A program made the position numbers and the translations under genes. Below the pieces are notes generated by a model. That model did no database searches. It saw nothing but the letters and a program-made list of their open reading frames with translations, and had not been told where the DNA came from. This document shows, in pieces, positions 3,867 to 13,104 of a stretch of DNA of 13,104 nt. The DNA is from a virus (lineage: Duplodnaviria; Heunggongvirae; Uroviricota; Caudoviricetes), in the IMG/VR virus record IMGVR_UViG_2703718848_000006, positions 1 through 13,104 of that record. One strand, 5' to 3'. The number at the start of each line of letters is the position of its first letter. Position 1 is the first letter of the stretch.

Positions 3867-4652
3867 TTATGAGTGATTTTTATTTGATGCTTTGTATTCT
3901 AAAACCTTCTTATTGGCGTAAAAGAATTTTGTATATGACAGGAATATAACCAGACCTGAAGTGAAATAGACGAGGGATAGTATTAATAATGCTTTTTTGT
4001 GACTGTTATTATCTTTAATCTCCTGGTTTAACCATTCGGAGTCCTCCTCGTTTAGCTGTAAGAGCTTATTGCAGGCGATCTCAGGAAGTGTGTCTTTTAT
4101 AAATACGTTTTGCAGTCTCTTGCAATCGGCAAGGGTATAAGTTTTATTAAATTCAACTGCTTTATTTTTGAAGGATAAAAGAACTTTGTCACTATAAACA
4201 TAGTACATCATGTTTTTATATGGTATGCCTATGGCATCCCTTACTATAACGGATTGTTCGTTGTGTATGTAACATGCGAGGAGAATGTAAAAAATACTGG
4301 CCAGAATTACAATTATTGTTTTAATTATGTGTGGTGGTTTTGTTATGTCACCCCAGATGCGAGTAAGGAAAAAATACGATGTTTTTAGTTTTCCATCAAT
4401 CAGTCCCTGCTGTATCATTCTCACATTTTCAATGCCTGATACATTGATTCCGTTAATTATTTTAAATAGTTGAATGTCGCGCCACTCGCGGTCAAGTCTT
4501 TTTAATTTTTTGTCTGAATATCCAAAATTGAAATAATGTGCAATAAGCCTCATAAGGTTACTTTTACCAAAGCTAAAAAATGCTAATACTGCAAAGCTAC
4601 AAAGGAAAAAAACGATTAGCCCCCACACATTAGTCACATTATAGCTGACCAT
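3867..4652 (-). CDS. Cargo (moron) gene: 261-aa predicted three-TM membrane protein of unknown function at the S-V (P2 orf30) position
   Basis: ORF with AAGGAG RBS 6 nt upstream of the ATG at 4650-4652. AT-rich (about 25% GC on a sampled line versus ~57% in flanking structural genes). Hydrophobic segments at about aa 9-28, 108-129 and 221-240. Opposite strand to all flanking tail genes. No motif I recognise. Confidence 0.7.
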   Translation of the reverse strand: MVSYNVTNVWGLIVFFLCSFAVLAFFSFGKSNLMRLIAHYFNFGYSDKKLKRLDREWRDIQLFKIINGINVSGIENVRMIQQGLIDGKLKTSYFFLTRIWGDITKPPHIIKTIIVILASIFYILLACYIHNEQSVIVRDAIGIPYKNMMYYVYSDKVLLSFKNKAVEFNKTYTLADCKRLQNVFIKDTLPEIACNKLLQLNEEDSEWLNQEIKDNNSHKKALLILSLVYFTSGLVIFLSYTKFFYANKKVLEYKASNKNHS

Positions 4653-4735: not shown

Positions 4736-5349
4736 ATGAACACTCTCGCAAATATTCAGGAACTCGCGCGCGCACTGCGCAACATGATTCGCACCGGCAT
4801 TATCGTCGANNCCGCGTGCAGACCGGCGGCATGTGCACCGACTGGCTTCAGTGGCTGACCCATCGCGCAGGACGTTCGCGCACATGGTGGGCACCTTCCG
4901 TGGGGGAACAGGTGCTGATTCTGTCCGTGGGCGGTGAACTCGACACGGCATTCGTTCTGCCGGGGATTTATTCCGGCGATAACCCCGCGCCGTCTGCGTC
5001 GGCGGATGCCCTGCATATCCGTTTCCCTGACGGGGCGGTGATTGAGTATGAACCCGAAACCAGTGCACTTACGGTAAGCGGAATTAAAACGGCCAGCGTG
5101 ACGGCTTCTGATTCTGTTACTGCCACGGTGCCGGTGGTCATGGTGAAAGCATCAACCCGCGTCACCCTGGACACACCGGAGGTGGTCTGCACCAACAGGC
5201 TGATTACCGGCACGCTGGAAGTGCAGAAGGGCGGGACGATGCGCGGCAACATTGAACACACCGGCGGTGAACTCTCATCAAACGGTAAGGTACTGCATAC
5301 CCATAAACACCCCGGCGACAGCGGCGGCACAACCGGGGGACCTCTATGA
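4736..5349 (+). CDS. V: Baseplate spike/assembly protein gpV; 5' region interrupted by a 2-N gap
   Basis: ATG at 4736 gives MNTLANIQELARALRNMIRTGIIV, then NN at 4810-4811, after which the reading continues in another frame as RVQTGGMCTDWLQWLTHRAGRSRTWWAPSVGEQ...GDSGGTTGGPL. Both parts match P2 gpV as I recall it. The frame break coincides exactly with the gap, so it is an assembly artefact. Confidence 0.85.
4810..4811. other. Assembly gap (NN) inside gene V
   Basis: Two N characters; the reading frame of V changes across them. Confidence 0.95.
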
Positions 5350-7139: not shown

Positions 7140-9350
7140 ATGAGCACAAAATTCAGAACCGTTATCACCACTGCCGGTGCAGCAAAGCTGGCAGCGGCAA
7201 CCGCACCGGGAGGGCGGAAGGTCAACATTACCACTATGGCCGTCGGGGATGGCGGTGGTAAATTGCCTGTCCCGGATGCCGGACAGACCGGGCTTATCCA
7301 TGAAGTCTGGCGACATGCGCTGAACAAAATCAGCCAGGACAAACGAAACAGTAATTATATTATCGCAGAGCTGGTTATTCCGCCGGAGGTGGGCGGTTTC
7401 TGGATGCGTGAGCTTGGCCTGTACGATGATGCGGGAACGTTAATTGCCGTGGCGAACATGGCCGAAAGTTATAAGCCAGCTCTTGCCGAAGGCTCAGGGC
7501 GTTCGCAGACCTGCCGCATGGTCATCATCGTCAGCAGTGTGGCCTCAGTGGAGCTGACCATTGACACCACAACGGTGATGGCGACGCAGGATTACGTTGA
7601 TGACAAAATTGCAGAGCATGAACAGTCACGACGTCACCCTGACGCCTCGCTGACCGCAAAAGGTTTTACTCAGTTAAGCAGTGCGACCAACAGCACGTCT
7701 GAAACACTGGCTGCAACGCCGAAAGCGGTAAAGACCGCCTATGACCTTGCTAACGGGAAATATACTGCACAGGACGCCACCACCGCGCGAAAAGGCCTTG
7801 TTCAGCTCAGTAGTGCGACTAACAGCACGTCTGAAACGCTCGCCGCAACGCCAAAAGCGGTAAAAGCAGCATATGACCTGGCTAACGGGAAATATACCGC
7901 ACAGGACGCCACCACCGCGCGAAAAGGGCTTGTCCAGCTAAGTAGCGTCACCAACAGCGATTCTGAAACGCTTGCGGCAACGCCAAAGGCGGTTAAGACA
8001 GCGTATGACCTTGCTAACGGGAAATACACTGCACAGGATGCCACCACAGCGCGAAAAGGTCTTGTCCAGCTCAGTAGCGCCACCAACAGCGATTATGAAA
8101 CGCTTGCGGCAACACCAAAAGCGGTGAAGTCTGCCTATGACAATGCTGAAAAACGTCTTCAGAAAGATCAGAACGGTGCGGATATTCCGGGAAAAGATAC
8201 TTTCACGAAAAATATCGGTGCCTGTCGTGCTTATAGCGGCGCTTTGAGCACTGAAGCCGGAAACTGGACAACCGCACAATTGATTGAATGGCTAGAGTCT
8301 CAAGGGGCATTCAATCACCCATACTGGATGTGCAAATGTTCATGGTCATACGGCAATAATAAAATTATTACCGATACTGGCTGTGGAACTATTCATCTTG
8401 CAGGTTGCGTTATTGAGGTTATGGGTAATAAAGCAGCAATGACCATTCGTGTGACCACTCCGAGTACATCAAGCGGTGGTGGTACCACCAGTGCGCAATT
8501 CACGTATATCAATCACGGAGCTGATTATGCGCCGGGCTGGCGACGTGACTACAATACGAAAAATAAGCAACCGGCTTTTGCATTAGGGAAAACAGGAAAT
8601 ACGGTTGCAAATAATAAAGCGGTAGGATGGAACTGGGACAGTGGTGCTTATTGTGCACAGGATGGCGGAGCATCAAAAATGGTGCTGCATTTTTACACGG
8701 GTGAGGGAAGTTGTCCGGCAATGCAGTTTCTTGTGGATTATAAAAACAGGGGGATTTTTTACAGGTCGGCACGTGATGGGTATGGATTTGAGGCTGACTG
8801 GTCTGAGTTTTATACAACATCACGAAAGCCAACACCTGCGGATATTCTTGCTCTGGCATTATCAGGCGGAAGCATGTCAGGCAGCATAAAATTTATCAAT
8901 GATGCCTTCCTGATTTGGGAAAGAAATACTGACTGGGCGAAGATTGGTTTTAAAAATGATGCCGACAGCGACACTGATTCATACATGTGGTTTGAAACAG
9001 GCGACAACGGCAATGAATATTTCAAATGGAGAAGCAAACAAAGCACCACAACAAAAGACCTGATGAATCTTAAGTCTGATGCACTACGGGTTACCGGGCA
9101 GGTGATACCATCAAATTTCAGCAATTTTGACTCCCGCTATGTCCGGGATATCCGGCTTGGTGGTGCCGCCACATACAAACCTGCGAACAATGGCATGACA
9201 TGGACGCATCAGGCTCCGTCAGGTTGCGTATATACCGGCATTATTGTTCAGGATACCGGCTCAAACTCTGCCGATAACATTGGTGGCGTATATTACAGAC
9301 CGGTGCAGAAATACATTAACGGGACATGGTATAACGTGGCGCAGGTATAA
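7140..9350 (+). CDS. H: Tail fibre protein gpH, 736 aa: conserved N-terminal baseplate-attachment domain, internal tandem repeats, divergent C-terminal receptor-binding region
   Basis: GAGG RBS at 7132-7135. N-terminus MSTKFRTVITTAGAAKLAAATAPGGRKVNITTMAVGDGGGKLPVPDAGQTGLIHEVWRHALNKISQDKRNSNYIIAELVIPPEVGGFWMRELGLYDDAG matches the P2 H N-terminal domain as I recall it. Followed by about 3.7 copies of a 44-aa repeat and a lower-GC C-terminal part. Confidence 0.9.
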   Translation: MSTKFRTVITTAGAAKLAAATAPGGRKVNITTMAVGDGGGKLPVPDAGQTGLIHEVWRHALNKISQDKRNSNYIIAELVIPPEVGGFWMRELGLYDDAGTLIAVANMAESYKPALAEGSGRSQTCRMVIIVSSVASVELTIDTTTVMATQDYVDDKIAEHEQSRRHPDASLTAKGFTQLSSATNSTSETLAATPKAVKTAYDLANGKYTAQDATTARKGLVQLSSATNSTSETLAATPKAVKAAYDLANGKYTAQDATTARKGLVQLSSVTNSDSETLAATPKAVKTAYDLANGKYTAQDATTARKGLVQLSSATNSDYETLAATPKAVKSAYDNAEKRLQKDQNGADIPGKDTFTKNIGACRAYSGALSTEAGNWTTAQLIEWLESQGAFNHPYWMCKCSWSYGNNKIITDTGCGTIHLAGCVIEVMGNKAAMTIRVTTPSTSSGGGTTSAQFTYINHGADYAPGWRRDYNTKNKQPAFALGKTGNTVANNKAVGWNWDSGAYCAQDGGASKMVLHFYTGEGSCPAMQFLVDYKNRGIFYRSARDGYGFEADWSEFYTTSRKPTPADILALALSGGSMSGSIKFINDAFLIWERNTDWAKIGFKNDADSDTDSYMWFETGDNGNEYFKWRSKQSTTTKDLMNLKSDALRVTGQVIPSNFSNFDSRYVRDIRLGGAATYKPANNGMTWTHQAPSGCVYTGIIVQDTGSNSADNIGGVYYRPVQKYINGTWYNVAQV
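7659..8144 (+). repeat. In-frame tandem repeat, 132-nt (44-aa) period, about 3.7 copies, inside tail fibre gene H
   Basis: Copies begin at 7659, 7791, 7923 and 8055 (partial). Unit K-G-[FL]-[TV]-QLSS-[AV]-TNS-[TD]-SETLAATPKAVK-x-AYDLANGKYTAQDATTAR, with synonymous and near-synonymous nucleotide differences between copies. Confidence 0.9.
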
Positions 9351-9353
9351 TTT

Positions 9354-9853
9354 ATGCAGCATTTAAAAAATNNCAATATCAATTGACAAAGAATTTTGAT
9401 GTTGTCTGGTTTTTTTCAGAAGATGGTAAGAACTGGTACGAAGAACAAAAGTATTTTGCTGATGACACGATAAAAATAGCGTACGACAAAGATAATATCA
9501 TCCGCTATGTGGAAAAGGATGTGACAGCTATCAGACCGGATGGATTAAGTGTTGTTGAAGTGGCGGATATTACTGCTAACCGACGGGCGGACATTTCAGG
9601 GAACTGGATGTTTAAGGATGGCACAGTGATCAAACGAATTTATACGGCAGAGGAATTGCAACAGCAGGCAGAAAACAGGAAAGCCAGACTTCTTGCAGAT
9701 GCTGAATCAGTCATCCAGCCGCTGGAACGCGCTGTCAGGCTGAATATGGCAACAGACGAGGAACGCACACGACTGGAAGCATGGGAACGCTACAGTGTTC
9801 TGGTCAGCCGTGTGGATCCTGCAAATCCTGAATGGCCGGAAATGCCGCAATAA
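9354..9853 (+). CDS. G: Tail fibre assembly protein (gpG/Tfa-like chaperone); 5' end interrupted by a 2-N gap
   Basis: ATG at 9354 (MQHLKN), then NN at 9372-9373, after which the long frame continues as [20 protein letters not shown]...[47 protein letters not shown]. This C-terminal region is the conserved Tfa chaperone domain. The track's TTG at 9383 is probably not the true start. Confidence 0.75.
9372..9373. other. Assembly gap (NN) at the 5' end of the tail fibre assembly gene
   Basis: Two N characters; frame break between the MQHLKN start and the downstream ORF. Confidence 0.95.
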
Positions 9854-10087
9854 CTTGTATGAGCTCTAGTGTGAGCTTACATATCTATGGCACAGAGTAA
9901 AGCCTAATCTGACAGTCCGCTCTGTGCCAGAAGCGGACATTGCGGCGTTACGGCACGTTAGGTCAGATATTTAAATGCACATGGTCCGCTTGTGGCGGAA
10001 GGATACTTACAAGAGTTGGTGAGAGATAGTAAAATCAATATGAAAATTAAAATTCGGCAATAATTCCTGATATAGTCATCTTAATGA

Positions 10088-10122
10088 ACATAAAAACTAT
10101 CACAATAGGATAGTTTTTATGT
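10088..10122. terminator. Perfect 14-bp AT-rich inverted repeat (7-nt loop) just 3' of the cargo-2 operon; candidate bidirectional terminator
   Basis: ACATAAAAACTATC (10088-10101), loop ACAATAG, GATAGTTTTTATGT (10109-10122). Lies 13 nt beyond the stop (10135-10137) of the last minus-strand gene. T-rich on both strands, but only 3 of 14 stem pairs are GC. Confidence 0.4.
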
Positions 10123-10134
10123 CATACTTGTTAG

Positions 10135-10830
10135 TTAATCACTTAAGGAATGAAGTGAGGCTCGTTGTGCAGAGGTTAAGCTAAGGAGGATTTTTTCTCG
10201 ATACTCAGGTGCAAAGGAAAAGAAAACATCAGGAAAAATTCTTATGATAGTTGATATCATAGTCTTAACCACCTTATCAATCACCTTCGAAATATTATCT
10301 ATTTTAACCAAGTCTATTTCGGGAAAAACATTTAAAGCTTTTATGTGAGCCATTTCTTTTACAGTAGCTGTATGTACGTGACTGCATAACGAAGAGTATT
10401 CAGCTTTTAAAGTTTCATGTAGTAGAGGATTTTTTTTGAAGACAGGATGTTCCCCAGTTTGTTCAATTACCTTAAACAATGATTTTTCTTCAAGTATTGA
10501 AGGATCTAGTAAGCAACCGATTGATTTTAAAGAATTTTCAATATAACTTCGCATCATTAGATTTGCTGGTTTGTATGCACCATTTATAACCATAAACATA
10601 GCTGTACCAAGGTCAGATGAAGCTTCTTGCAATCGCTCCAATGAGTTGGCGTCTATTTTCTCCTTGGAGAAATGATACAAACAGTAAACAAGGCACATAA
10701 AAGAATAATATCTCTTATGTATCATGCTTATTTTCCCTCTTGAGTTAATATTCTCGAAAACATTTTTTAATTTATATTCAGAGAAATAAGTAACTAACTC
10801 AGTGAAATCGCTGTTTACTTCTCTCGACAT
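10135..10830 (-). CDS. Cargo-2 gene 3: hypothetical protein, 231 aa
   Basis: ATG at 10828-10830 with AAGGA RBS about 6 nt upstream. Only 2 nt separate it from the stop of the upstream gene. AT-rich. No catalytic or structural motif I can recognise. Confidence 0.65.
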   Translation of the reverse strand: MSREVNSDFTELVTYFSEYKLKNVFENINSRGKISMIHKRYYSFMCLVYCLYHFSKEKIDANSLERLQEASSDLGTAMFMVINGAYKPANLMMRSYIENSLKSIGCLLDPSILEEKSLFKVIEQTGEHPVFKKNPLLHETLKAEYSSLCSHVHTATVKEMAHIKALNVFPEIDLVKIDNISKVIDKVVKTMISTIIRIFPDVFFSFAPEYREKILLSLTSAQRASLHSLSD

Positions 10831-10832
10831 TG

Positions 10833-11339
10833 TTAGTCCTTATTGAATATATCTTTTATAACTTCATTCCAGTCATATATCTCATTTTGAGCGCTAGAAA
10901 GGTTCTTCCTCTCTTTTATTCTACTCAAAACTAGAGGGTTATTTGACATTGAATTGATAATATTATAAGCCTTACCTAAATCGGATGAGTTTTTCTCGTG
11001 AACGTCACACACGATTATGCCGATCATTTCCTCTCTAGATCTTTTTTCAGGCCTGCTGATTTCGATACCTAACATGCGTGCAAAATCATCTATATCTTTA
11101 TTTTTTTGGAAGAGATCTTTGTCTAATAAAATCCTCGGAAGATACCCAACAAGGAAACCTTTAATATCATTTTTTTTAGACTTTGAATTTCTTTCGTTAA
11201 CTTCTAAATTATCAGTATAACTATCTTGAAGTAATTCAATAAAGTTGATTCTTGATAATTTTTTTGAAATAAAGGAAAACTCCTCTAAAAAGTTTAACAG
11301 TTGCTTAATTTCTTTTGAGTTATTTTTTTTGTCAGTCAT
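10833..11339 (-). CDS. Cargo-2 gene 2: hypothetical protein, 168 aa, Lys/Glu/Asn-rich
   Basis: ATG at 11337-11339 overlaps the TGA of the ParA-like gene (ATGA overlap, translational coupling). No recognisable motif. Confidence 0.65.
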   Translation of the reverse strand: MTDKKNNSKEIKQLLNFLEEFSFISKKLSRINFIELLQDSYTDNLEVNERNSKSKKNDIKGFLVGYLPRILLDKDLFQKNKDIDDFARMLGIEISRPEKRSREEMIGIIVCDVHEKNSSDLGKAYNIINSMSNNPLVLSRIKERKNLSSAQNEIYDWNEVIKDIFNKD

Positions 11340-12166
11340 AAGTCACCTACTCTAGAGAGAAGTTCGTCAGTAATTTTAGACAGCGAAAACTTCATATCCT
11401 CATCAGTTAAATTGTTAATAAATAAGCCTCTTGTTTGATTTCTTGCCAACTCAGTACGTTTGCTCAAATATGATTTAAAGATCTTATTACGCCAACGTTT
11501 TTGATTATTGAAGTAACGAAGACTTTCCTCATATAAATTACTATTACCTTCAACCATATTAAAAACTATGCCCGCACATTCAATCTTAAGATCGAAATTT
11601 TCTCTCTTCTCATTTATAATGCTATCTAATAGATCGATACCAGTGATCGAAAGAGGATCGGGTTTGGCTGGAATGAGGTAATAATCAGATGCAATTAATG
11701 CGCTGGACATCCAAACTGATGGGGTTGGTGGGGTATCAATTATGACATAATCATAGTCATTTTCATGGATTTTAAGAAAGCGTCTAAGCTTGTTTTCTAT
11801 CCCTTCTCCTGGTTTCATTTCAATTTTATATAGCCCAAGGCTTCCGGGAACAATGTGAAAATTATCATTTAATTGAATTGGTGTTATATCGGCTAATTCT
11901 TTAGGTGTGTTAACTAAAGGACCAGTCATTGTAGATAGTCGAATTTTTGAACTATAAAAAATATCACATATGCTATCGCCTCCGCTTTTCATATGTGCAA
12001 CATATTTGCTTGTATCCATTACACATTGCGTTGCGTTAAATTGTGGGTCGATATCTATTAATAATATTTTTTGCCCAAGTTTATCTGAAAGATGATTAGC
12101 AATATTGGTAGCCAATGTTGACTTACCAACGCCACCTTTCATATTGATTAAGCTAATAACTTTCAA
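11336..12166 (-). CDS. Cargo-2 gene 1: ParA/MinD/Soj-family deviant Walker-A ATPase, 276 aa
   Basis: N-terminus (M/L)KVISLINMKGGVGKSTLATNIANHL carries the deviant Walker A motif KGGxxK[ST]. LLIDIDPQFNAT and the Walker B-like YDYVIIDTPP are also typical ParA motifs. Probable TTG start at 12164-12166 with AGGAG SD 8 nt upstream; an alternative ATG start lies at Met9. Confidence 0.85.
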   Translation of the reverse strand: MKVISLINMKGGVGKSTLATNIANHLSDKLGQKILLIDIDPQFNATQCVMDTSKYVAHMKSGGDSICDIFYSSKIRLSTMTGPLVNTPKELADITPIQLNDNFHIVPGSLGLYKIEMKPGEGIENKLRRFLKIHENDYDYVIIDTPPTPSVWMSSALIASDYYLIPAKPDPLSITGIDLLDSIINEKRENFDLKIECAGIVFNMVEGNSNLYEESLRYFNNQKRWRNKIFKSYLSKRTELARNQTRGLFINNLTDEDMKFSLSKITDELLSRVGDL

Positions 12167-12180
12167 TCTTCTTGCTCCTG

Positions 12181-12199
12181 TTTTGATTAACGCTAAGCT
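12181..12199. repeat. Direct repeat copy B (TTTTGATTAACGCTAAGCT), immediately upstream of the ParA-like gene RBS
   Basis: Matches 12394-12413 (ATTTTGATTAACACTTAAGCT) at 19/20 positions with one indel. The two copies are about 213 bp apart and bracket the AT-rich presumed promoter region. Confidence 0.6.
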
Positions 12200-12393
12200 T
12201 TTTCATCAGCATTGAAATTTAACATGTGTTTTACAAACTTATGTCTTATCACTACCTTATCATTTTTTACATACACCATAAATATTTTTAACTAAAAATT
12301 TTTGGTTTTCAACCTGAAATCTTTATCTTTAAAAACAAAACATTACAATATTTTTAGTAAGATGCCTTACCTAATGTAATGTGAATGGCTCAA

Positions 12394-12413
12394 TTTTGAT
12401 TAACACTTAAGCT
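12394..12413. repeat. Direct repeat copy C, at the distal edge of the AT-rich cargo-2 upstream region
   Basis: See copy B. A weaker related motif (TTAATCACTTAAG, 10135-10147) overlaps the stop codon at the other end of the operon. Confidence 0.55.
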
Positions 12414-12767
12414 ATGTTAATAATGGTTTTGTAAGTGTGATGAGGGTTCCATATGAAGAAGTGATTTCCCGAACAATACAACATGAATATCATCCTCGTA
12501 GTCGGTGTTTCTTCACATGAACTCTGTCGCAAATACGCTATATGAAACGTGGCAAGATGAATGTACCTGAGGTTATCAATCTTAAACCGCTTGAGAGTAC
12601 GCCCTGATCCTGCCCGTTGATAAACTAACTGCATTGTTTGTAATGCTTCATCGGTGGTGAGAACAAGTTTCGTACTTCCGCTTCTCGCTCAAAGCAGACT
12701 GTCAGATTTGATAGCGTTTTGGCTATGTAAGTTGCCAGTTGGGAAATGAGTGAGTACAAATCAGGAC

Positions 12768-12795
12768 AGGCGGGCGAATTGCCCGCCTTTTCTTT
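12768..12795 (+). terminator. Rho-independent terminator-like hairpin on the + strand, upstream of the FI promoter region
   Basis: GC-rich stem GGCGGGC (12769-12775), loop GAATT, GCCCGCC (12781-12787), followed by TTTTCTTT (12788-12795). Confidence 0.55.
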
Positions 12796-12798
12796 ATC

Positions 12799-12866
12799 TG
12801 TTGTTTCATCCACTGACCAGCCAGGTCAAATAGCGTCTCATGCACTGCCCAACAGAAAATAGTTGC
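12799..12866 (+). promoter_or_regulatory. Candidate late promoter P_F for the sheath operon (Ogr/activator-dependent type)
   Basis: TGTTGT at 12799-12804 with a partial TGT-N12-(c)CA dyad centred near 12811. Perfect inverted repeat TGACC-N5-GGTCA at 12814-12828. Weak -10-like GAAAAT at 12855-12860. GGAG RBS at 12880-12883 before the FI ATG at 12892. P2 late promoters are known to carry an upstream dyad element, but this is a partial match only. Confidence 0.4.
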
Positions 12867-12891
12867 ACCCATTAACCACGGAGTTAAACGG

Positions 12892-13104
12892 ATGAGTGAC
12901 TATCATCACGGCGTGCAGGTGCTGGAGATTAACGACGGCGCCCGCGTCATTTCCACTGTATCCACTGCCATTGTCGGCATGGTCTGCACGGCCAGCGATG
13001 CGGATGCGGAAACCTTCCCCCTCAATAAACCGGTGCTGATTACCAATGTGCAAAGCGCAATTGCAAAGGCCGGTAAAAAAGGCACGCTGGCGGCATCGTT
13101 GCAG
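12892..13104 (+). CDS. FI: Tail sheath protein gpFI, N-terminal part; continues beyond the window
   Basis: ATG at 12892 preceded by GGAG. Translation [71 protein letters not shown] matches the P2 FI N-terminus as I recall it. Open to the window end. Confidence 0.85.

What the first reader, a model, noticed from the sequence alone, without database searches (positions are those of the whole stretch)
9854..12800. AT-rich three-gene minus-strand operon inserted between tail-fibre assembly gene G and sheath gene FI (the P2 Z/fun cargo position)
The structural genes are all on the + strand at roughly 55-60% GC. Between G (ends 9853) and FI (starts 12892) lies about 3 kb of AT-rich DNA carrying three tightly packed minus-strand genes: a ParA-like ATPase (11336-12166), a 168-aa protein (10833-11339) and a 231-aa protein (10135-10830). 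The first two overlap by ATGA and the last two are 2 nt apart, so they form one translationally coupled unit with its own SD sequences. In P2 this position holds the non-essential Z/fun gene, and cargo loci of P2-like prophages are known to carry variable anti-phage genes. A chromosomally integrated P2-like prophage has no obvious need for plasmid-type partitioning, so a ParA-like ATPase with two unknown partners here is most plausibly an uncharacterised defence or superinfection-exclusion module. Function is inference only.
Basis: partly seen in the sequence, partly recalled or inferred. Interest (0 to 1): 0.85.

Follow-up and report, generated by a model that had tools for sequence, protein, structure and literature searches.

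The report
ParA-adaptor-HEPN-like cargo module in P2 prophage
The AT-rich insert between the P2 tail genes G and FI is a mobile three-gene cassette (a ParA-type ATPase, a small helical protein and a HEPN-like protein) that occurs as the same gene trio in prophages and genomic islets across many bacterial phyla and is most likely an uncharacterised anti-phage or toxin-type module rather than a DNA-partition system.

Summary
Three tightly coupled minus-strand genes (A 11336-12166, B 10833-11339, C 10135-10830) lie in about 3 kb of 29-34% GC DNA between P2 genes G and FI.

No partition features are present: no ParB-like protein and no centromere repeats. The trio is not specific to E. coli or P2. 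The order A-B-C was found in 66 of 80 reference-genome loci from many phyla, nearly always more AT-rich than the flanks, and on viral contigs next to repressors and integrases.

In E. coli the same 2.8-kb cassette, bounded by short palindromic ends, sits in a P2 slot, a lambdoid nin/Q region, and an island beside type I R-M and DarTG. Only 1 of 5,426 complete genomes has it in P2.

It matches no PADLOC (2023) model, and I found no paper that describes it. The closest precedent is a 2013 computational prediction of ParA/Soj-HEPN toxin-antitoxin gene pairs.

A defence or abortive-infection role is well supported by context but is not demonstrated.

The parts
11336..12166 (-). Gene A: ParA/Soj-class ATPase, 276 aa, TTG start. 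Deviant Walker A KGGVGKS, DIDPQ and IIDTPP motifs are intact.
   Evidence: Pfam AAA_31 1.4e-37 and CbiA 1.4e-18. phrog_164 5.7e-60. Closest solved relatives are pSM19035 delta (2oze, 3.3e-21) and Soj. Invariant catalytic columns across 28 homologues. RefSeq name 'ParA family protein'.
10833..11339 (-). Gene B: 168-aa all-helical protein, a putative adaptor. It has a Lys-rich N-terminal tail and conserved motifs LPxLLxDxxLF, KRSRxExIG and WN.
10135..10830 (-). Gene C: 231-aa HEPN-like helical protein, the putative effector. Invariant residues are S72, G84, R94, E98, Y145 and H153.
12167..12699 (-). AT-rich non-coding leader and presumed promoter region that travels with the cassette.
   Evidence: GC 0.29-0.31. 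Included in the 99.5% identical segment found in other contexts. No Rfam match. Not conserved in diverged copies. Only weak promoter-like hexamers.
9906..9937 (.). Left arm of the inverted repeat, a palindromic cassette end containing the hairpin GTCCGCT-N9-AGCGGAC.
   Evidence: Inverted repeat I1, 32 nt, 88% complementary. Homology with the other genomic contexts breaks here. Annotated as 'left inverted repeat' in the P2-EC30 Z-region record AJ512676.
12677..12708 (.). Right arm of the inverted repeat, a palindromic cassette end.
   Evidence: The start of the conserved P2 right flank (12677-12891) is shared by P2-like phages carrying other cargo.
10088..10122 (.). Perfect 14-bp AT-rich hairpin 13 nt downstream of gene C; possibly a terminator.
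   Evidence: Inverted repeat I7, 100% complementary. Flagged by the terminator scan. Function not tested.

Best explanation
The cassette is a mobile, tripartite conflict module, most likely an anti-phage abortive-infection or toxin-antitoxin-type system carried as prophage cargo. Protein C is a HEPN-like helical protein with an invariant R/E/Y/H constellation and is the effector, most plausibly a nuclease acting on RNA. The ParA/Soj-class ATPase A is the nucleotide-dependent switch that holds C in check or licenses it. Protein B, which is translationally coupled between them, is the adaptor linking A to C. Its Lys-rich N-terminal tail and KRSR motif are candidates for stimulating the ATPase, as ParB, ParG and MinE peptides do for their ATPases.

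Shown here: gene structure, family and fold assignments, strict co-occurrence and order across phyla, foreign composition, and location in prophage cargo slots and islands. Inferred: effector activity, the regulatory logic, the trigger, and the anti-phage phenotype.
For: Location: the cassette sits in the P2 fun slot, which is experimentally defence-enriched (PMC9519451) and listed as a tail-gene defence hotspot (PMC13586616). The same cassette also lies beside type I R-M and DarTG and in a lambdoid nin/Q region. Diverged copies lie between lambda P and RusA/Q, and beside Mrr, CcdAB and an integrase.

Conservation: A-B-C in this order, usually with overlapping genes, in 66 of 80 reference-genome loci from many phyla and in Pseudomonas, Elizabethkingia, Blautia and Calidifontibacillus.

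Foreign origin: the triad is more AT-rich than its flanks in 57 of 60 loci, median -12 GC points.

Viral contigs: the nearest neighbours are Cro/CI repressors, ImmA, S24 peptidases, integrases, GmrSD and methylases.

ATPase: catalytic motifs are invariant.

Precedent: ParA/Soj-HEPN gene pairs were predicted to be toxin-antitoxin systems (PMC3710099). ParA-type ATPases are paired with RelA_SpoT or hypothetical genes in P2 and P4 hotspots.

Against partition: no ParB-like protein and no repeats.
Confidence: 0.55

Rival explanations
1. It is a DNA partition or maintenance module. ParA with B as a novel centromere-binding adaptor (and C as an accessory) would segregate an excised or episomal form of the prophage or island.
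For: A is a bona fide ParA/Soj-class ATPase whose closest solved relatives are plasmid and chromosome partition proteins. A small protein translationally coupled downstream of parA is the classic par operon layout. Rousset et al. interpreted a ParA-containing set in the other P2 hotspot as a putative plasmid partitioning system.
Against: B matches no ParB, RHH or HTH family and resembles none structurally. There are no tandem or iterated repeats in or beside the cassette. All hosts examined are integrated elements of unrelated types (P2, lambdoid, tyrosine- and serine-integrase elements) or small chromosomal islets. An invariant third gene with a HEPN-like fold has no place in known par systems. 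A scores far below the NCBIfam partition equivalog cut-offs (90 bits against 180).
Confidence: 0.12
2. It is a purely selfish addiction (toxin-antitoxin) cassette that stabilises itself and its carrier element, with no phage-defence benefit.
For: It follows the same logic as the predicted ParA/Soj-HEPN toxin-antitoxin pairs. The cassette moves as a discrete unit between elements at 99.5-99.8% identity. It neighbours other TA systems such as CcdAB and ParDE in some loci.
Against: Its repeated placement in experimentally defence-enriched prophage slots and beside R-M, DarTG, GmrSD and Mrr is typical of systems with an anti-phage phenotype, and many TA-type modules also defend. The two readings cannot be separated with these tools.
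Confidence: 0.15
3. It is another prophage accessory function, such as lysogenic conversion, control of prophage induction, or counter-defence, unrelated to killing or excluding incoming phages.
For: It is located in lysogeny modules next to repressors and integrases. B and C have no demonstrated activity. The P2 Z region also carries non-defence cargo in other phages, for example HAD and NUDIX hydrolases.
Against: The trio also occurs in many genomes as an isolated AT-rich islet where the two nearest ORFs on each side include no obvious phage genes. The invariant catalytic-type residues in C and the ATPase motifs in A point to an enzymatic effector-switch pair.
Confidence: 0.08

Closest known systems
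Predicted ParA/Soj ATPase + MAE_18760-family HEPN toxin-antitoxin gene pairs (Anantharaman et al. 2013, Biol Direct, PMC3710099)
   Same: A ParA/Soj-class ATPase lies in an operon with a HEPN-superfamily protein on mobile or conflict-associated DNA. The proposed logic is that the ATPase controls a HEPN toxin.
   Different: That prediction is computational only. It describes two genes, whereas this module has an obligatory third gene (B) between them. C is not in the MAE_28990/MAE_18760 Pfam family (0 of 48 members hit it) and lacks Rx4-6H.
HepT-MntA (type VII HEPN-MNT toxin-antitoxin systems)
   Different: The partner here is a ParA-class P-loop ATPase plus an adaptor, not a nucleotidyltransferase. 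There is no Rx4-6H motif. C is about 100 residues larger than HepT.
Type Ib ParA-ParB (ParF/ParG, delta/omega) plasmid partition systems
   Same: A deviant Walker A ATPase is followed by a small, translationally coupled gene. The best solved relative of A is pSM19035 delta.
   Different: No ParB, RHH or HTH partner; no centromere repeats; integrated hosts; an extra conserved HEPN-like gene.
Other cargo of the P2 Z/fun and old/tin hotspots (fun, PD systems, ParA+RelA_SpoT sets)
   Same: Same slot and same logic of swappable AT-rich cargo between conserved flanks. ParA-type ATPases are paired with toxin-like genes in Rousset's tables.
   Different: B and C are unrelated to those systems (no PADLOC hit). 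This specific trio did not appear in the ParA/AAA_31 passages returned from Rousset's supplementary tables, nor in the other papers' text that I searched.

Membership tests
ParABS-type partition system | Deviant Walker A (KGGxxK[ST]) ParA/Soj ATPase | tested here: met
   KGGVGKS, DIDPQ and IIDTPP present and invariant. Pfam AAA_31 and CbiA.
ParABS-type partition system | Cognate centromere-binding protein (ParB HTH or RHH type) | tested here: not met
ParABS-type partition system | Adjacent centromere (parS or iteron repeats) | tested here: not met
   No tandem repeats in 9800-12950. Only short two-copy chance-level direct repeats.
ParABS-type partition system | Carried by an autonomously replicating element that needs segregation | tested here: not met
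   Integrated P2 and lambdoid prophages, integrase islands and chromosomal islets. All but one of 1,495 E. coli places are chromosomal.
HEPN superfamily | HEPN four-helix up-down fold | tested here: met
HEPN superfamily | Rx4-6H catalytic motif | tested here: not met
   The invariant residues are R94, E98 and H153, and they lie on different helices. The R31-x6-H38 in the window protein is not conserved at the R position.
HEPN superfamily | Metal-independent RNase activity | not testable with these tools
   Requires biochemistry.
ParA/Soj + HEPN(MAE_18760) predicted TA pair | HEPN protein of the MAE_28990/MAE_18760 family (PF18737) | tested here: not met
   PF18737 is absent from the hits of the window protein and from the 25 most-matched families in the scan of 48 diverse C-family members at E <= 1.
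ParA/Soj + HEPN(MAE_18760) predicted TA pair | Two-gene operon of ATPase and HEPN | tested here: not met
   A third gene, B, lies between A and C in 66 of 80 loci.
Known or candidate defence systems in PADLOC-DB 2.0.0 | Significant match of the component proteins to system HMMs | tested here: not met
   A gives only a P-loop-local hit to PDC-M28B (3.8e-5, residues 4-40). B and C give none. The 48 C-family members give only chance-level hits. Newer releases of PADLOC, DefenseFinder or DefensePredictor could not be run.

The most novel reading that the evidence does not exclude
This is the E. coli representative of a previously undescribed, cross-phylum family of three-gene anti-phage systems. 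In it a ParA/Soj-class ATPase, a protein class otherwise known for positioning DNA and other cellular cargo, would be the sensor or switch for a non-canonical HEPN-like effector, acting through a dedicated adaptor. The cassette would move between prophage hotspots and islands through its short palindromic ends.
Probability: 0.4. Interest if true: 0.8.

Novelty: new variant of a known kind. Interest (0 to 1): 0.64.

Why it matters
If the trio defends against phages, it adds a widespread system with a new architecture, found in at least 195 reference species by a lower-bound pattern search. I know of no established defence system built on a ParA-class ATPase. It would also provide a tractable E. 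coli model, a 2.8-kb cassette with a native promoter, for a family present in gut Firmicutes, Bacteroidota and Pseudomonas. It would turn a computational prediction from 2013 (ParA/Soj controlling HEPN toxins) into a testable case. Separately, finding the identical cassette in P2, lambdoid and island contexts, bounded by the same palindromes, gives a concrete handle on how cargo is exchanged at phage defence hotspots.

Tried and rejected
- Rfam scan of 9700-13104 at E <= 1: no RNA family.
- Alignment of the leaders upstream of parA from diverged copies: no conserved element. One sequence (MB31) was entered in the wrong orientation, and the conclusion rests on the other five.
- PDB sequence-profile searches for B and C: nothing.
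- Foldseek of C against the PDB: nothing significant. The afdb50 library was unavailable.
- The search for related loci with the broad C alignment failed for lack of conserved stretches. The ParA alignment was used instead.
- Literature searches found no paper on this trio: ParA plus defence terms, ParA plus HEPN, protein accessions, and 'ParA-like' with 'antiphage'.
- Rousset's 'putative plasmid partitioning system' refers to the other P2 hotspot. The ParA entries seen in the supplementary tables have different partner genes.
- The DUF5677 lead: the single-gene test in PMC12632615 was not among the positives and concerns a different family.
- The small ORFs at 12407-12634 and 12625-12813 were rejected as genes. 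They are unannotated in RefSeq, and the second crosses the cassette boundary.
- The idea that the end palindromes are a dispersed REP-like repeat was rejected: the median is one copy per genome.
Full report
**1. The observation**

A and B overlap by ATGA. B and C are separated by two bases. Each start is preceded by an SD-like sequence. GC falls to 0.29-0.34 across the insert, against 0.54-0.61 for most of the + strand structural genes.

A 99.2-99.8% identical P2-like prophage in E. coli S19-141 is annotated in RefSeq. It has a tail fibre assembly protein immediately before the insert, and a tail sheath gene starting at the position equal to window 12892.

Two refinements apply. A 32-nt inverted repeat (9906-9937 and 12677-12708) brackets the cargo. 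About 530 bp of AT-rich non-coding leader lies upstream of gene A.

**2. The three proteins**

*Protein A* is a genuine ParA/Soj-class ATPase.
- Family matches are Pfam AAA_31 (1.4e-37), CbiA, and phrog_164 'ParA-like partition protein'.
- The closest solved relatives are pSM19035 delta and Soj.
- The deviant Walker A, switch and Walker B residues are invariant in 28 homologues.
- It scores far below the NCBIfam partition equivalog cut-offs.

*Protein B* has no Pfam, NCBIfam or PADLOC family.
- It is predicted to be all-helical, with pLDDT 74.5.
- Conserved features are a Lys-rich N-terminal tail and the motifs LPxLLxDxxLF, KRSRxExIG and WN.

*Protein C* also lacks any family hit of its own.
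- It models well, with pLDDT 84 and pTM 0.80.
- Among 48 diverse family members, 14 weakly match DUF5677 (best 1.2e-5) and 3 match Pfam HEPN (best 9.6e-5). None of the most-matched families is the MAE_28990/MAE_18760 model.
- S72, G84, R94, E98, Y145 and H153 are invariant. There is no conserved Rx4-6H motif.
- I therefore treat the HEPN-like fold as probable and RNase activity as inference.

**3. The trio is a conserved cross-phylum unit**

The word-based protein search found only 18 C clusters and 12 B clusters, all enterobacterial where named. An exhaustive profile search found about 390 C clusters at 50% identity, all standalone proteins of roughly 230-245 aa. The ParA subfamily has more than 2,300 clusters at E < 1e-20, at about 50% identity across phyla.

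The order A-B-C is kept in every context examined:
- a lambdoid prophage, between lambda P and RusA/Q;
- an Enterobacter island;
- a Pectobacterium integrase island carrying Mrr and CcdAB;
- Pseudomonas aeruginosa, Elizabethkingia, a Blautia prophage and Calidifontibacillus.

Pairwise identity of the window proteins to the Pseudomonas, Elizabethkingia, Blautia and Calidifontibacillus copies is 49-52% for A, 32-34% for B and 27-33% for C; two other diverged copies, a lambdoid prophage and an unassigned contig, score higher for B and C, up to 46% and 42%.

A pattern scan of one genome per species found 195 stretches encoding a ParA relative. In 66 of the best 80, HMMs detect B and C directly downstream in the same order, usually overlapping. 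Most exceptions are truncated contigs. More distant ParA relatives on viral contigs (32-40% identity) are also often followed by weak B-like and C-like genes.

**4. Context**

The triad is more AT-rich than its flanks in 57 of 60 reference-genome loci. The median difference is -12 GC points, and it is never GC-richer. It therefore looks foreign almost everywhere.

On viral contigs the nearest neighbours are dominated by lysogeny-module genes. These are Cro/CI-type HTH proteins, ImmA/IrrE and S24 peptidases, serine and tyrosine integrases, and antirepressors. GmrSD restriction enzymes and DNA methylases also appear.

In reference genomes the neighbours are mixed. They include integrases, IS200 transposases, Schlafen/AlbA_2, Fic, pAgo, a type I REase, a DRT reverse transcriptase, AbiTii, LmuB and PDC candidates. 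They also include many housekeeping genes. This is suggestive of defence enrichment, but it has no background control.

The P2 slot itself is an experimentally supported defence hotspot. Vassallo et al. found three validated systems at the fun locus (PMC9519451). The 2026 NAR survey places 16% of P2 defence systems in the tail-gene hotspot (PMC13586616).

**5. Distribution and mobility in E. coli**

The cassette occurs in 133 of 5,426 complete genomes. Only one of these, S19-141, has it in the P2 G-FI slot. The others carry window 9882-12699 at 99.5% identity. In strain MB31 that segment lies in an island next to hsdM-hsdS-darT-darG-hsdR, Ag43 and a GTPase. I inspected that context in MB31 only; the similar coordinates and match ends in the other genomes suggest the same island.

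IMG/VR holds two P2-context copies (L098, L099). It also holds three copies in a third context (L100-L102). That third context is a lambdoid nin/Q region with Q, RusA, DUF968 and a DNA methylase.

In all three contexts homology ends inside the same short palindromes. These are also the conserved boundaries of the variable Z region in P2-like phages carrying other cargo. The end element is low-copy, with a median of one per genome. No recombinase is encoded inside the cassette, so how it moves is unknown.

**6. Mechanism**

The best-supported reading is a tripartite conflict module. C would be the effector, A the ATP-dependent switch, and B the adaptor. This parallels the computational prediction of ParA/Soj-HEPN toxin-antitoxin pairs, in which the ATPase neutralises the HEPN toxin by conformational control or phosphorylation (PMC3710099). 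It also parallels the ParA-plus-RelA_SpoT sets in P2 and P4 hotspots.

Which partner senses infection, what C cleaves, and whether the outcome is abortive infection are all inferences.

The partition rival is disfavoured for four reasons:
- there is no ParB-like protein;
- there are no repeats;
- the hosts are integrated elements;
- a HEPN-like third gene is conserved alongside A and B.

A purely selfish addiction module cannot be separated from defence with these tools.

**7. Novelty**

None of the three proteins matches a PADLOC-DB 2.0.0 system. I found no paper describing the trio. Newer defence databases could not be queried.

I rate it a new variant of a known kind, namely an NTPase-controlled HEPN-type effector module. 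Its unusual features are a ParA-class switch, an obligatory adaptor, and a non-canonical HEPN-like family without a Pfam model.

I put confidence in a defence or conflict role at about 0.55. Confidence in the specific mechanism is lower.

Noticed in passing
window 9906-9937 and 12677-12708; L002 8001-10814; L101 7468-10252: The 2.8-kb cassette is 99.5-99.8% identical in three unrelated E. coli contexts: the P2 slot, a lambdoid nin/Q region, and an island with type I R-M and DarTG. In each case homology ends inside the same short palindromic ends. Those ends are also the fixed boundaries of the variable Z region in P2 phages with other cargo. This suggests cassette exchange at specific palindromic sites. 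No recombinase lies inside the cassette.
   Followed up: partly
window 3867-4652 (minus strand): A second AT-rich cargo insert (GC 0.34-0.36) lies between the P2 virion morphogenesis gene and baseplate gene V. It encodes a 261-aa protein with hydrophobic, apparently membrane-spanning stretches. It matches phrog_2407 (unknown function) and has no Pfam or PADLOC hit. The segment is absent from the otherwise collinear S19-141 prophage.
   Followed up: partly
window about 2185-2219 and about 4810-4813: There are runs of N in the window, seen as X in the translations. They interrupt a lysis-region ORF and the start of gene V.
   Followed up: no
window 7140-9853: Tail fibre gene H contains about four tandem copies of a roughly 44-aa unit (…LSSATNSTSETLAATPKAVK…YDLANGKYTAQDATTARKGLVQ…). 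Its 3' half plus gene G drop to about 0.44-0.47 GC, consistent with a swapped host-range module. The S19-141 orthologue of H is annotated as a pseudogene with an internal stop.
   Followed up: no
L002 11884-18814 (E. coli MB31): A darT-darG toxin-antitoxin pair is embedded inside a type I restriction-modification operon (hsdM-hsdS-darT-darG-hsdR), directly beside the island copy of the cassette.
   Followed up: no
L113-L176 (IMG/VR viral contigs): ParA relatives at only 32-40% identity are also frequently followed by a shorter B-like gene (about 115-135 aa) and a C-like gene (about 220-235 aa) with weak but significant HMM hits. This hints at a much larger superfamily of prophage-borne trios.
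   Followed up: partly
Supplementary tables of PMC9122126: ParA-type ATPases in the P2 and P4 hotspots are paired with other effector-like genes, for example 'ParA/AAA_31 | RelA_SpoT' and 'AAA_31/CbiA + hypothetical'. ParA-class ATPases may therefore be a recurrent regulatory partner of different toxins.
   Followed up: partly
window 12768-12788 (+ strand): A strong GC-rich terminator-like hairpin (AGGCGGGCGAATTGCCCGCCT followed by TTTCTTT) lies in the conserved P2 flank just outside the cassette and upstream of gene FI.
   Followed up: no
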